IMG/VR virus record: IMGVR_UViG_2541047425_000010
DNA: 18,707 bases
Direction: 5' to 3' (one strand)
Source of the DNA: a virus
Taxonomy: Duplodnaviria > Heunggongvirae > Uroviricota > Caudoviricetes
Positions 6,001-9,000 of this stretch are shown here, in pieces (position 1 is the stretch's first letter; each line of letters opens with the position of its first letter). The position numbers were made by a program.

Positions 6001-9000
6001 AAACCGCGCTCCTGAGCAAAGTTTGGGGTGATTTTCAGCATGACGCCCCCTTGCCATTCGCCGGGATGATATCGATCCCAGCATCGCTATAACTGGTCAG
6101 TTTCTTTGGCATTCGAAGCAACACAAAGCCTTCAGTGCCACGACGTGCCAATTCACGCAATTTCATGACTGAGCGGGGTCGCGGAGAGCTACGATCGATC
6201 TCGATAGCCACACTCCCACCAGTTTTTGCTGTTGCGAGAATATCAACACGGAAATTTCTGCCATCGATTCTTACTGTGACATTGCTTGCCACATGCATCC
6301 CCTGTGACTCAAGGATCGTTACGACATCAGCCAGAAAGCTGTAACGCTCCTCTGTTCTCAGTGGTACAGTGCTCAGTGTACGGATCAGTGCCGATTTGGT
6401 TGCTGCTGACATAGTTTATCACTCAATAGTTAGCTCGATAATTATTTCACCAGGAACTATCGCGCGCTTATACAGTGATCTACCTAACCTATGTACCTGC
6501 CTTCTGGCCTAGGCCAAGGGATACAGGCCTTACCAACGACTCCACCCCCTTACCCCCTCCTCGCTTCCTTTCAGGAAATTAGTTGCATGTGAAATTATTT
6601 CTAGCGCAACTAACCGCCATCATGGTGTCGGGGGAAACTTCCGTACCGCTACTGGCGAAAGCATCCAGCCACGGCTGGCTCTCGCGTACTTCTGGACATA
6701 CACCCGTAACCGGGTGTTGGCGCTCCGTCTTGCCCTGTTGCCCTTCCTGAACGATACAGGCTCCTTGTCCCACTCTTCCTGGTACACTCTCGCGTACTCT
6801 GCTGCAATTTTTACCCGGGTGGTCGGGTCTAGCTGTAACAATTGCTCCTGTATCCAGTCCCGATCAGCATCACAGTACTGCTCGGGCATAACCGTTTTGA
6901 TTTGCCTGTTCACTCACACCTCCGATGGGCTGTGTGTCCAGGATTAATCATCGCCTCTTACGAACGCAGGGAACGGACGAACCTCTTCCGCCTCAACTGT
7001 GCCGTCATCAAAGGTTTTGACGTATATTTCTCGTCCGACGAGAAGCGCTTTACTGATTGCACTCTGCGCCACGCCAAAGTCCTTAGCGGCTTTCTTTTGG
7101 CCGAACCTGTATACGTAATCAGCCAGGGTCTCTTTTTTCATCGCCATAACTGACTCCTTCAAAATGCCCATATCATTACGCACAGTTATTAAAATGTCAA
7201 CACCGCAGATATTTCATTACATATAACCAAAGGTGATATGGTATGAACATGAAAAAGAAACCGTTAACCCCTGAGCAACTGGAAGACGCCAAGCGTCTGA
7301 AAAGTATTTTTAACGCTAAAAAGAAAGAGTTAGGCCTGTCGCAGGAATCATTAGCCTATGAATTAGGTGTTACCCAAAGCGCTGTTAATCAGCTAATGGC
7401 TGGCATCAACGCCATAAATGCCAGCCACGCAGCACAGCTTGCTAAGATACTGAATGTAAAGGTCGGAGATTTCAGTCCCAGCCTGGCAAAATCTATTGCA
7501 GAAATGGCGCTCGCAATTGAAGAGCCATTAACTCGTGTCCCCGCTTACGAATATCCGTTACTCTCCTGCGTACAAGCTGGCGCATTCTCAATGGATGATA
7601 TTTCGTACACCGCAAAAGATGCGATTAAATGGATCTCCACCACCACAAAAGCCAGTGACAGGTCGTTCTGGCTGGAGGTCAAGGGGCATTCAATGACCGC
7701 ACCGCAGGGTGGTAAACCCAGCTTCCCTGAAGGTATGCTGATACTCGTTGACCCTGAACGGGAAATCGAGGATGGCGATTTTTGCGTGGCCCGAATGAAC
7801 GGCGATGAATTTACCTTCAAACGATTCATTCGTGAGAGCGGTAAAGCGTACCTGGAGCCGCTCAACCCACGATTCGACATGATTGAGTGTAACGAAAACT
7901 GCCAGTTTGTCGGAAAGGTCATCAAATCGCAGTGGAATGATGAGACTTTTGATTGAGCTCACAGAGTGATTTGACATCCTTCACGCCTGAAGAATGTGGA
8001 GGATGTCAAAAGCACGTTGGCATCATCATGCCACGTAAAGAGGATTAGTTATGCTTCAAAAGCTAGACGTCGCAGACAGCGTGCGTCGCGAGCTGTCTCC
8101 CCGTACCGCGCGTAAACACAAAGCAGAGTTCGGCCAGTTCATGACGCCTTCTGGCGTGGCCCGTTTTATGGCCTCCTTGTTTCCACCGAGCACAATGAAA
8201 ACTTGCCGTCTACTGGACGCAGGCGCTGGTTTAGGCGCACTGTCTTGCGCCTTCCTCGACCGTTGGCTGGTTGGCGAGTTTGGCTTTGAGTCTGTCGAGG
8301 CAACAGCCTACGAAATCGACAAAAAGCTGTGTGGTCACCTTGCGAAGCACTTAACCGGGTACAGGAGAGTGACGCCCCGCATCATCGAAGGGGATTATAT
8401 TGAGCTGGCAACCGCCGAAGGTCTACAGGATCGAGGTTATACCCATGCAATACTTAATCCGCCTTACAAGAAGATCAATAGCCAGTCAGCCCACCGGCAG
8501 GCTCTTCGCACTGTCGGTATCGAGACGGTAAATCTGTATTCCGCCTTTGTTGCACTGGCTGTAGGTGAGGTTGCACCTGGCGGGCAGATAGTGGCCATAA
8601 TCCCACGTAGTTTCTGCAACGGACCGTATTACCGTCCGTTCCGTAATTTCATACTTGAGCGGGCAGCAATCCGCCATATTCATTTGTTCGAATCACGTAG
8701 CAAAGCTTTCAGGGATGACGATGTGTTGCAGGAAAATATTATCATCCGCCTGGAGCGTGGAGGCCGTCAGGAGGCTGTTACAGTCACAACTTCGACCGAT
8801 GATAGCTTTTTTGACCTGGTCACCTACGAACACCCATTTGACCAGATTGTGTACCCGGACGATTCGGAGCGGTTTATTCATGTGCCGACCACGCTCGAGA
8901 AAAGCACCATTGAGTTATCATCTGCCGTACAATGTTCGCTGGCTGATATTGGCGTGAAGGTATCGACCGGACCGATAGTTGATTTCCGACTGAAAGCTCA

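What the first reader, a model, noticed from the sequence alone, without database searches (positions are those of the whole stretch)
7171..7238. Lambda-like operators with a diverged recognition helix imply a distinct immunity specificity
The repressor aligns with lambda CI along its length but its helix 3 differs. The three OR candidates and the OL candidate at 10624-10640 keep TATC...GATA-like ends yet differ internally from lambda operators, and the OL and OR sites match each other at 11 of 17 positions. This supports a heteroimmune lambdoid immunity region in which the R-M cassette sits between OR and OL.
Basis: partly seen in the sequence, partly recalled or inferred. Interest (0 to 1): 0.4.

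Follow-up and report, generated by a model that had tools for sequence, protein, structure and literature searches.

The report
Stx phage immunity operators, OL located

Summary
The window is the early region of an "Eru1"/Oslovirus-type lambdoid prophage. Its cro-cI segment is 100% identical to phages P13374, TL-2011c, VT2phi_272 and PA2. The three OR sites in 7171-7238 are real and already known. Chakraborty et al. 2018 (PMC5977221) footprinted them with purified repressor, and their published sequences match the window exactly at 7174-7189, 7196-7212 and 7216-7233.

An unbiased register search gives lambda-like 17-mers at 7174-7190, 7198-7214 and 7222-7238, spaced 24 bp apart, with half-site nATnAC.

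A second site lies 24 bp upstream (10600-10616). Both sit on a sigma-70 promoter in the same register as lambda PL/OL1/OL2 and just upstream of a phi80-type nutL. They are kept in every relative with this CI, whatever cargo lies between cI and OL. In a relative with a different CI N-terminal domain they are replaced by other sites.

Two papers reported that they could not identify OL in these phages. The PstI-like R-M cassette between cI and OL is known (M.EcoGIII). Heteroimmunity to lambda is plausible but untested. Overall this is already known, with one small new annotation.

The parts
6944..7147 (-). cro (67 aa from ATG 7147; lambda Cro family)
   Evidence: Pfam PF09048 Cro, E = 3e-34. It is 34/67 identical to lambda Cro. 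Annotated as cro in P13374.
7172..7200 (-). PR promoter: -35 TTGACA (7200-7195), 17-nt spacer, -10 AATGAT (7177-7172)
   Evidence: Promoter scan, 10 of 12 matches. Same register as lambda PR relative to OR1/OR2. PR transcription and its repression in vitro are published.
7174..7190 (.). OR1, CATTACGCACAGTTATT (half-sites AATAACT / CATTACG)
   Evidence: The published OR1 footprint, ATAACTGTGCGTAATG, is 7174-7189 on the minus strand. This is the top register in the exhaustive search. No natural variation occurs inside it.
7198..7214 (.). OR2, CAACACCGCAGATATTT (register less certain; the alternative is 7195-7211)
   Evidence: The published OR2 footprint is 7196-7212. This register gives 24/24 spacing and the highest information content, 6.00 against 5.76 for the alternative. 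The published OR2- mutation TG->GC hits positions 4-5 of the CAACACC half-site. Its last 4 nt overlap the PR -35, as in lambda.
7222..7238 (.). OR3, TATAACCAAAGGTGATA (half-sites TATAACC / TATCACC)
   Evidence: The published OR3 footprint, 7216-7233, overlaps it. The published OR3- mutation (TA->GG at 7222-7223) falls on half-site positions 1-2. It is the best-scoring dyad. It is invariant in relatives.
7243..7956 (+). cI repressor, 237 aa (HTH_3 + Peptidase_S24)
   Evidence: Pfam hits. 61.2% identical to lambda CI without gaps. 100% identical DNA in P13374, TL-2011c and PA2.
8051..10470 (+). PstI/BsuBI-type type II R-M cassette (methylase 8051-9520, endonuclease 9517-10470), occupying the position of lambda rexAB
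   Evidence: Pfam Eco57I-type methylase and both BsuBI_PstI_RE domains. Annotated as BsuBI/PstI R-M in related phages. Known as M.EcoGIII, recognising CTGCAG. No + strand terminator lies between cI and M.
10489..10518 (+). Intrinsic terminator after the R-M cassette; inferred end of the cI-M-R unit
   Evidence: Terminator scan: 8-bp stem with 6 GC pairs, followed by a T-run.
10600..10616 (.). OL2 (new here), AAGCACCGACGGTATTT; its last bases overlap the PL -35
   Evidence: Second-best hit outside OR for the OR-only matrix, 12.1. It lies 24 bp from OL1. It is 12/17 identical to OR2. Same register as lambda OL2. Present in all 14 alleles, with changes only at positions 3, 7, 8, 9 and 13.
10614..10642 (+). 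PL promoter: TTTACA, 17 nt, TATATT
   Evidence: Promoter scan, 10 of 12 matches. 26/43 ungapped identity to lambda OL2-PL-OL1. A phi80-type nutL follows about 80 nt downstream.
10624..10640 (.).
   Evidence: Best hit outside OR in 18.7 kb, 16.1, with about 0.01 expected by chance. Strict dyad match. Present in all 24 sequences with this CI, at 1.4-3.4 kb from the cI start. Only positions 4, 8 and 9 vary.
10722..10786 (+). phi80-type nutL: boxA TGCTCTTTAACAA (10722-10734) and 'nutL core' hairpin CACGTAAACGTG (10775-10786)
   Evidence: Exact match to the 13-nt boxA pattern I searched with, which I recall as the rrn boxA consensus. From boxA to about 11041 the leader is about 96% identical to the phi80 nutL-N leader, by my count from the printed alignment; the whole 10643-11045 alignment gave 350 identical of 414 columns. 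The phi80 features are annotated in JX871397 and M11919.

Best explanation
This is the immunity switch of an Eru1/Oslovirus-type lambdoid prophage, of the same immunity type as the Stx2a phage of the 2011 O104:H4 outbreak.

Right side: A lambda-like CI dimer (helix-turn-helix N-terminal domain, S24 self-cleaving C-terminal domain) binds three 17-bp quasi-palindromic operators between cro and cI. OR1 and OR2 overlap PR and shut off cro and the replication genes. CI at OR2 activates PRM, and CI at OR3 represses it. These steps have been shown experimentally in the literature.

Left side: I infer that the same protein binds two operators about 3.4 kb away. OL1 lies over the -10 and OL2 over the -35 of a strong promoter, PL. 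PL drives the leftward early operon through a phi80-type nutL.

Recognition: The recognised half-site is nATnAC. It keeps lambda's A2, A5 and C6, in line with the conserved Gln44, Ser45, Asn55 and N-terminal arm. It is relaxed at position 4, which lambda requires to be C. This fits the helix-3 changes G46A, G48N, A49Q and N52A, and probably gives an immunity distinct from lambda's.

Cargo slot: The PstI-like R-M cassette sits between cI and OL in the position of lambda rexAB. It is probably co-transcribed with cI from PRM in the lysogen and ends at a terminator just before OL. That slot carries different cargo in different relatives.
For: Shown by published experiments on the identical sequence:
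- Three repressor-DNA complexes by EMSA, three DNase I footprints, OR1-OR2 cooperativity, PR repression and PRM activation/repression (PMC5977221). The published sites and oligonucleotides match the window exactly.

Shown here:
- The cro-cI segment is 100% identical to P13374, TL-2011c, PA2 and others.
- Protein domains fit the model.
- An exhaustive search of 13,453 registers on OR alone picks 17-mers at 24/24 spacing. This is also the lambda register: 45/84 identity for OR/PR and 26/43 for OL/PL against a random mean of 10.8.
- The OR-only matrix ranks 10624-10640 and 10600-10616 as the two best sites outside OR among 18,691 positions. Chance gives 0.01 hits at or above 16 and 0.45 at or above 12 per window. 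No such pair arose in 300 simulations.
- Both sites overlap a 10/12 sigma-70 promoter.
- All 24 sequences with this CI (the window, P13374 and 22 IMG/VR loci) keep OL1, and OL2 and PL stand at the same offsets in all 14 distinct alleles. The interval from the cI stop to OL1 ranges from 0.68 to 2.67 kb and carries different genes.
- A relative with the same CI C-terminal domain but a different N-terminal domain (Stx2_EC3283) shares the leader from just after the -10. It carries its own TATTAGC-type sites at OR and at the OL2-equivalent position.
- A phi80-type nutL follows the promoter, as it follows the annotated phi80 pL.
- In the OR region, operator positions vary less than flanking positions: 2/51 against 7/32, Fisher p = 0.024.
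Against: - Nobody has shown CI binding at 10600-10640. Chakraborty et al. 2018 wrote that there is 'no readily identifiable OL', and Yin et al. 2015 could not find operators in these phages.
- The matrix rests on only six half-sites, and I had seen the OL candidate before fixing the register. The later exhaustive search on OR alone gave the same register.
- The OR2 register is ambiguous (6.00 against 5.76 bits), and the published footprint boxes are offset by up to 5 nt from my 17-mers.
- Variation among relatives does not separate high-information from low-information operator positions significantly (p = 0.32).
- One OL2 allele (L019) changes position 5 of a half-site.
- No third OL site was found.
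- Heteroimmunity to lambda is not demonstrated. Lambda operators score 6-13.6 on this phage's matrix.
- Co-transcription of the R-M cassette with cI is inferred only from the absence of a terminator.
Confidence: 0.88

Rival explanations
1. The 10600-10640 region is only a promoter (PL), and its resemblance to the OR sites is inherited lambda/phi80-like promoter sequence rather than functional CI operators. On this view the leftward operon is controlled in another way, for example by the C4/isrK RNAs and terminators.
For: Two groups looked and reported no identifiable OL. There is no binding data. Part of the similarity to OR2 and to lambda lies in the -35 and -10 hexamers themselves. A second strong promoter and an antisense-RNA module lie 400 nt downstream.
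Against: OL1's dyad arms ATAAC/GTTAT lie mostly outside the hexamers. They match the half-sites of the highest-affinity footprinted site, OR1. In the relative with a different CI N-terminal domain, the promoter stays at the same place. The sequence between and around its hexamers is replaced by sites matching that phage's own OR. That is what is expected of operators and not of a bare promoter.
Confidence: 0.08
2. The operators are truly asymmetric sites, as boxed in the published footprints (16-18 bp, weak symmetry, little mutual similarity). The repressor would then recognise them in a non-lambda-like way, and the 17-bp nATnAC dyad model would be an over-fit.
For: The authors of the footprinting study drew this conclusion. 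OR2 has one very poor half-site (AAATATC). The register search has close runners-up.
Against: DNase I boundaries are imprecise. The dyad model places all three sites at 24-bp spacing in the lambda register relative to PR. It accounts for both published knock-down mutations. It ranks isolated OR2 as weak, as measured (85-fold). It also predicts, from OR alone, two further sites exactly on PL.
Confidence: 0.12
3. The immunity is not really distinct from lambda's. Because the half-site still tolerates TATCAC, this CI and lambda CI cross-react enough to give partial cross-immunity.
For: OR3's right half is TATCACC. The P13374 OL1 is 14/17 identical to lambda OR3. Lambda operators score 6-13.6 on this phage's matrix. 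Gln44, Ser45, Asn55 and the N-terminal arm are conserved.
Against: This phage's operators score -0.04 to 9.8 on the lambda matrix, against 15-23 for lambda's own sites. Four of its six OR half-sites lack C at position 4. From my memory of lambda operator mutagenesis, not tested here, lambda CI needs that C. Five of nine helix-3 residues differ.
Confidence: 0.1

Closest known systems
OR of the BAA2326 / P13374 Stx2a phage of E. coli O104:H4 (Chakraborty et al. 2018, Viruses 10:228)
   Same: The cro-OR-cI DNA is identical. The three footprinted sites, PR and PRM are the same objects as in the window.
   Different: That study defined the sites by footprint boundaries and judged them weakly symmetric. 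It found no OL. The P13374 OL alleles differ from the window at OL1 position 4 (C instead of A) and OL2 position 8.
Phage lambda OR/PR/PRM and OL/PL
   Same: Both use 17-bp dyad operators. OR has three sites at about 24-bp spacing. OL1 and OL2 lie 24 bp apart. OR2 and OL2 end inside the -35, and OR1 and OL1 end inside the -10. CI is 61% identical over the same 237 aa, Cro belongs to the same fold family, and accessory genes sit between cI and OL.
   Different: The half-site is nATnAC instead of TATCAC(C). Helix 3 differs at 5 of 9 residues. No OL3 is detectable. An R-M cassette replaces rexAB. There is no N, cII or cIII, and replication genes are Eru1 helicase/primase instead of O/P.
Stx2 phage 933W immunity region
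   Same: It is an Stx-type lambdoid phage with three OR sites and only two OL sites, as cited.
   Different: Its repressor and operator sequences are unrelated: CI identity to the Eru1 repressor is reported as 19%. 933W has an N gene, and its CI does not bind OR1/OR2 cooperatively.
Phage phi80 pL-nutL-N region (JX871397, M11919)
   Same: The PL leader from boxA to about 30 nt before the phi80 N start is about 96% identical by my count from the alignment. This includes the 'nutL core' CACGTAAACGTG. The promoter with its operators lies 65-80 nt upstream of boxA in both.
   Different: phi80's operators and CI are different, and phi80 has the N gene. Here N is replaced by an isrK-like/C4/Rha module, and no N homologue is detectable in the window.

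Membership tests
Lambda CI-type (LexA/S24) phage repressor | [quoted passage not shown] | tested here: met
   Pfam HTH_3 (residues 27-76, E = 8e-10) and Peptidase_S24 (105-227, E = 1e-28). Ungapped 61.2% identity to lambda CI.
Lambda CI-type (LexA/S24) phage repressor | Sequence-specific binding to operators that overlap divergent promoters, with repression of PR and autoregulation of PRM | not testable with these tools
   Published for the identical sequence by EMSA, DNase I footprinting and in vitro transcription (PMC5977221). Identity of the DNA was checked.
Lambda Cro family (PF09048) | Short Cro protein of the lambda Cro fold family, encoded divergently from cI as the first gene of PR | tested here: met
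   PF09048, 117 bits against a cut-off of 32.7. 34/67 identity to lambda Cro. PR lies directly upstream.
Lambda-type tripartite OR | Three related dyad sites at about two-helical-turn spacing, with OR1/OR2 over PR and OR3 over PRM | tested here: met
   The register search gives 17-mers at 24/24 bp. There is positional homology to lambda OR/PR. Three footprints are published.
Lambda-type OL/PL | Operators of the same specificity as OR that overlap the -35 and -10 of the leftward early promoter, beyond the accessory genes downstream of cI | tested here: met
   The OR-only matrix picks 10624-10640 and 10600-10616. Both lie on promoter 10614-10642, in the lambda register, with nutL downstream. The test is by sequence only; binding is untested.
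Lambda-type OL/PL | A third site (OL3) that allows OL3-OR3 looping | tested here: not met
   No 17-mer starting between 10540 and 10599 scores 4 or more on the matrix.
Heteroimmune with respect to lambda | No cross-repression between this CI and lambda operators, or the reverse | tested here: inconclusive
   Cross-scoring with the two matrices is asymmetric. This phage's sites are poor on the lambda matrix (-0.04 to 9.8 against 15-23). Lambda sites are intermediate on this phage's matrix (6-13.6). No experiment was found.
PstI/BsuBI type II restriction-modification system | Adjacent N6-adenine methylase and endonuclease with both BsuBI/PstI domains | tested here: met
   PF07669 in the 489-aa protein. 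PF17728 and PF06616 in the 317-aa protein, E = 1e-54 and 5e-61. Homologues are reported to methylate and cleave CTGCAG (M.EcoGIII).
N/nut antitermination (phi80 type) | A nutL site (boxA plus hairpin) in the PL leader together with a cognate N gene | tested here: not met
   nutL is present. No phi80, lambda or HK97 N homologue appears in the six-frame translation of the window; the best tblastn E-value is 0.13. Eru1 phages are reported to lack N.

The most novel reading that the evidence does not exclude
The PL promoter and two CI operators (OL1 10624-10640, OL2 10600-10616) of the Eru1/O104:H4-type Stx phages had been reported as unidentifiable in the two papers I read that address the question, and they are located here. 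These phages would then have a bipartite OL with no OL3, so no OL3-OR3 loop to tune PRM. Their PL would feed a phi80-type nutL that has lost its N gene. It would then run into a C4/isrK antisense-RNA-controlled Rha (antirepressor-like) module that comes in at least three specificities behind one and the same CI. That would mean a two-layer immunity in which phages with identical CI need not be fully co-immune. It could bear on the notorious instability ('hair-trigger' induction) of these lysogens.
Probability: 0.4. Interest if true: 0.45.

Novelty: already known. Interest (0 to 1): 0.25.

Why it matters
This immunity type belongs to the Stx2a phages of the O104:H4 (2011) and O103:H25 (2006) outbreaks and of clade 8 O157:H7. 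How easily they induce sets toxin output.

The OR half of the switch is already characterised, so the finding as written adds nothing new there.

The useful increment is a concrete, testable PL/OL assignment with a coherent half-site model. It lets the published 'hair-trigger' model be completed: two OL sites, no OL3, and an OL-OR distance that varies from 1.4 to 3.4 kb with the cargo. It also marks the exact left boundary of the immunity module, just after the PL -10, and the variable cargo slot where defence genes are carried.

Tried and rejected
- Reader-style registers starting at TATC (7171) and 7195. A matrix built from them ranks the OL candidate only 10th and gives no second site. Position 7171 varies in nature. 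Rejected for OR1; 7195-7211 remains a close alternative for OR2.
- A third OL site. None was found.
- DNA-level comparative analysis of OR. Relatives are either nearly identical or share only the cI C-terminal half, so covariation power is low.
- Enrichment of variation at low-information operator positions. Not significant (p = 0.32).
- Structure in the PL leader. The single-sequence fold is unremarkable (z = -0.62). Rfam finds nothing there except C4 and isrK further downstream.
- HK022 put-like antiterminator RNA. There is no sequence similarity to the HK022 early region. The King et al. 2011 paper on put-like RNAs could not be retrieved. The leader turned out to be phi80-type nutL.
- A second boxA or nutR downstream of cro. 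None was found.
- An N gene. No tblastn hit. The 65-aa ORF 10619-10816 starts upstream of the predicted transcript start, and its frame is broken in the KO-TP1 homologue (my reading of the sequence).
- Later papers that might have reported OL. The searches returned nothing relevant.
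Full report
WHAT THE WINDOW IS

The 1,151 bp around cro-cI (6900-8050) are 100% identical to many Stx-converting phages. These include P13374 (O104:H4, 2011), TL-2011c (O103:H25), VT2phi_272, PA2/PA8 and Shigella Ss-VASD. The segment is also present in 147 of 5,426 complete E. coli genomes.

From 2540 to 18707 the window is 99.9% identical to VT2phi_272, PA2 and PA8. The genes leftward of cro on the minus strand are the Eru1 helicase, primase and DUF1367 set. The window is therefore the early region of an "Eru1"/Oslovirus-type lambdoid prophage.

Pfam confirms the following:
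- CI has HTH_3 and Peptidase_S24 domains.
- Cro belongs to the lambda Cro family (PF09048).
- The cassette is an Eco57I-type methylase followed by a BsuBI/PstI endonuclease.
- The first ORF beyond the non-coding stretch is a Rha-family protein.

THE OBSERVATION

CI aligns with lambda CI without a gap at 145/237 identity. Helix 3 reads QSAVNQLMA against lambda QSGVGALFN. Gln33, Gln44, Ser45, Asn55 and the Lys-rich N-terminal arm are conserved.

Chakraborty et al. 2018 (PMC5977221) purified the "BAA2326" repressor, 61.2% identical to lambda CI. They showed three EMSA complexes and three DNase I footprints. They also showed OR1-OR2 cooperativity, repression of PR, and activation followed by repression of PRM. 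Their three site sequences and their three synthetic oligonucleotides are exact matches to the window at 7174-7189, 7196-7212 and 7216-7233.

REGISTER AND HALF-SITE

The published authors found the sites weakly symmetric and unlike one another. I searched all 13,453 combinations of site width (15-19) and position in the cro-cI spacer for the most informative shared dyad half-site.

The top solution is three 17-mers at 7174-7190, 7198-7214 and 7222-7238, exactly 24 bp apart. Their half-sites are CATTACG/AATAACT, CAACACC/AAATATC and TATAACC/TATCACC. Information sits at positions 2 (A, 6/6), 5 (A, 6/6), 6 (C, 5/6) and 3 (T, 4/6). The half-site is therefore nATnAC, which is lambda's TATCAC with position 4 relaxed.

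This is also the lambda register. OR2 ends in the GTTG of the PR -35 (TTGACA) and OR1 ends inside the -10, with 45/84 identity to lambda OR/PR. Both published knock-down mutations fall on half-site positions: OR2- on positions 4-5 of CAACACC, and OR3- on positions 1-2 of TATAACC.

The OR2 register is not secure, since 7195-7211 scores 5.76 against 6.00 bits. A matrix from that register performs worse, and T7171 is C in natural variants with the same CI.

THE OL CANDIDATE

A matrix built only from the three OR sites was run over all 18,691 positions of the window. The two best sites outside OR are 10624-10640 (AATAACCGCAAGTTATA, 16.1 bits, above two of the training sites) and 10600-10616 (AAGCACCGACGGTATTT, 12.1 bits). 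They are again 24 bp apart.

In first-order Markov simulations, 0.01 hits at or above 16 and 0.45 at or above 12 are expected per window. No pair of hits at or above 12 within 20-27 bp arose in 300 trials. The strict dyad ATNAC-N5-GTNAT occurs 4 times against 0.33 expected. Three of those are OR1, OR3 and OL1.

The two sites sit on a 10/12 sigma-70 promoter, TTTACA-17-TATATT (10614-10642). OL2 ends in the -35 and OL1 ends in the -10. This is position for position as in lambda OL2-PL-OL1: a 7-nt spacer and 26/43 ungapped identity, against a random mean of 10.8. An intrinsic terminator (10489-10510 plus a T-run) closes the R-M cassette just upstream.

COMPARATIVE EVIDENCE

IMG/VR supplied 22 loci with this CI at 97-100% identity. 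In each of those loci and in P13374, the best hit outside OR is OL1. It lies 1.4, 2.0, 3.2 or 3.4 kb from the cI start.

The 14 distinct alleles of the OL region keep OL1 except at positions 4 (A/C), 8 and 9. They keep OL2 except at positions 3, 7, 8, 9 and, in one allele, 13. The 17 nt upstream of OL2 are almost entirely variable, although a 1-nt indel inflates that count.

The interval between cI and OL holds different cargo in different loci (functional labels are my reading of the sequences and were not run through Pfam):
- the R-M cassette;
- a remnant of it;
- a 341-aa ORF;
- a hicAB-like pair;
- a protease-like gene together with the hicAB-like pair.

The most telling case is Stx2_EC3283. 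It has the same CI C-terminal domain but a different N-terminal domain and a different cro, and its homology with the window starts just after the PL -10 (window 10636 onward). Running the same unbiased procedure on its OR gives 17-mers at 24/23 spacing with a TATTAGC-type half-site. The best hit outside OR in its 10.3 kb is TATTAGTCTCGCTATTG, which ends in the -35 of the equivalent promoter. That is the OL2 position. The operator segment therefore swaps together with the DNA-binding domain at both OR and PL, while the promoter frame and the leader stay the same.

DOWNSTREAM OF PL

The leader carries an exact match to TGCTCTTTAACAA at 10722-10734. I recalled this 13-mer as the rrn boxA consensus. 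From boxA to about 11041 the leader is about 96% identical to the phi80 nutL-N leader, by my count from the printed alignment. The whole 10643-11045 alignment gave 350 identical of 414 columns. The shared stretch includes the annotated 'nutL core' CACGTAAACGTG. In phi80, the annotated pL with its CI operators lies 65 nt upstream of boxA; here the distance is 80 nt.

No N gene follows, in agreement with reports that Eru1 phages lack N, cII and cIII.

WHAT IS NEW AND WHAT IS NOT

OR, the relationship to lambda CI and the R-M cassette next to cI are all published. The R-M system is M.EcoGIII, recognising CTGCAG, and is reported to protect against other lambda-like phages.

OL is not published in anything I could find. 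Yin et al. [quoted passage not shown] Chakraborty et al. 2018 state that "there is no readily identifiable OL or N gene" and describe about 1 kb of non-coding DNA after the R-M genes. My searches for later work found nothing. The library does not cover most subscription journals, so prior description cannot be excluded.

MECHANISM, WITH THE STATUS OF EACH STEP

Shown in the literature:
- CI binds OR1, OR2 and OR3.
- CI represses PR and autoregulates PRM.

Shown here, by sequence only:
- A coherent nATnAC dyad model.
- Two matching sites on a promoter in the lambda register.
- Conservation of those sites across relatives, and their replacement in a heteroimmune relative.

Inferred:
- CI represses PL through OL1 and OL2.
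- The R-M cassette is co-transcribed with cI from PRM (no + strand terminator in the 94-nt gap) and stops at the terminator before OL.
- The helix-3 changes relax position 4 and set an immunity different from lambda's.

The last point is the weakest. This phage's sites are poor lambda sites (-0.04 to 9.8 against 15-23). Lambda's sites are middling on this phage's crude matrix (6-13.6). No cross-immunity experiment was found.

VERDICT

Noticed in passing
window 11054-11978: [quoted passage not shown] One is an isrK-like sRNA (11089-11164, 58.7 bits) with its own promoter TTGACT-17-TATATT (11054-11082) and terminator. The other is a C4 antisense RNA (11189-11276, 77.1 bits). A Rha-family (antirepressor-like) gene follows directly at 11331-11978. 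I read this as resembling a P1 immI / Gifsy isrK-type second immunity layer, placed right after PL.
   Followed up: partly
window 11113-11119, 11243-11249, 11280-11286; loci L001, L035 and others: Three short elements change together among phages. They are TTCTCAC in the isrK-like RNA, its complement GTGAGAA in C4, and TTCTCAC again in the leader of the Rha gene. The three alleles are TTCTCAC, TTGCTAC and TTAGGAC. All three occur behind the same CI, so antisense specificity and CI immunity assort independently.
   Followed up: partly
window 10722-11041: The PL leader is a phi80-type nutL (boxA, 'nutL core' hairpin) plus the phi80/HK97-type N leader, about 96% identical to phi80. The N gene itself is missing and the isrK/C4/Rha module stands in its place. 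The same boxA-plus-hairpin element occurs in 57 distinct variants in IMG/VR. Stem changes look compensatory by eye (CATCG..CGATG / CACCG..CGGTG / CACCAG..TTGGTG; CACG..CGTG / CACA..TGTG). Whether an N-less nutL still works is open.
   Followed up: partly
window 7957-10599 and loci L013, L016, L018, L020, L022: The interval between cI and OL is a variable cargo slot in the position of lambda rexAB. It holds a PstI-like R-M, a remnant with only the last 94 codons of R, a 341-aa unknown ORF, a hicAB-like pair, or a 300-aa protease-like gene plus the hicAB-like pair. The functional labels for the non-R-M cargo are my reading of the sequences and were not tested. The OL-OR distance therefore ranges from 1.4 to 3.4 kb.
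   Followed up: partly
window 10540-10630 vs L001 (P13374) 11641-11730: The window and P13374 have identical cI and OR but differ at five positions clustered just before and inside OL. These include OL1 position 4 (A against C) and OL2 position 8 (G against A). The next 280 nt are identical. P13374 also carries a second Rha-type gene with a second RNA module.
   Followed up: partly
locus L019 (IMGVR_UViG_2879724737_000004): One relative has CI N48S in helix 3, together with OR2 position 3 A->G, an OL2 change at position 13 and OL1 centre changes (GC->AA). This could be co-adaptation of repressor and operators, but it is a single case.
   Followed up: no
window 7237-7251: TATGGT (7237-7242), which overlaps the end of OR3, lies 6 nt before the second ATG of cI (7249). 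This is the same spacing as lambda's PRM -10 (TAGATT) before its leaderless cI AUG. PRM transcripts may therefore start at 7249 and give a CI beginning MKKKPLT. The upstream ATG 7243, with its GGTGA Shine-Dalgarno sequence, would serve other transcripts. This is inference from sequence only.
   Followed up: no
window 1-2540: The window departs from the Stx phages at 2540. Instead of Q-stx it carries a Ser/Thr phosphatase (1878-2543, minus strand) and an LpxR lipid A deacylase gene (707-1666, plus strand). This stretch is 100% identical to chromosomal prophages of O157:H7 strains. No stx gene lies in the window.
   Followed up: partly
window 410-424: A fourth perfect match to the operator dyad (ATAACTACCTGTAAT; matrix score 10.1) lies in the intergenic region upstream of lpxR. 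No good promoter overlaps it. With 0.33 expected by chance it may be fortuitous.
   Followed up: partly
window 4148: The window contains a single CTGCAG site, the reported target of this R-M system, where about 4.6 are expected from length alone.
   Followed up: no
locus L035 3910-3926: In the heteroimmune relative Stx2_EC3283, an extra operator-like site (TATCAGTTTTTCTAATT, 12.4 bits on its own OR matrix) lies between the R gene and an additional two-gene cargo (156 aa and 127 aa) inserted before PL.
   Followed up: no
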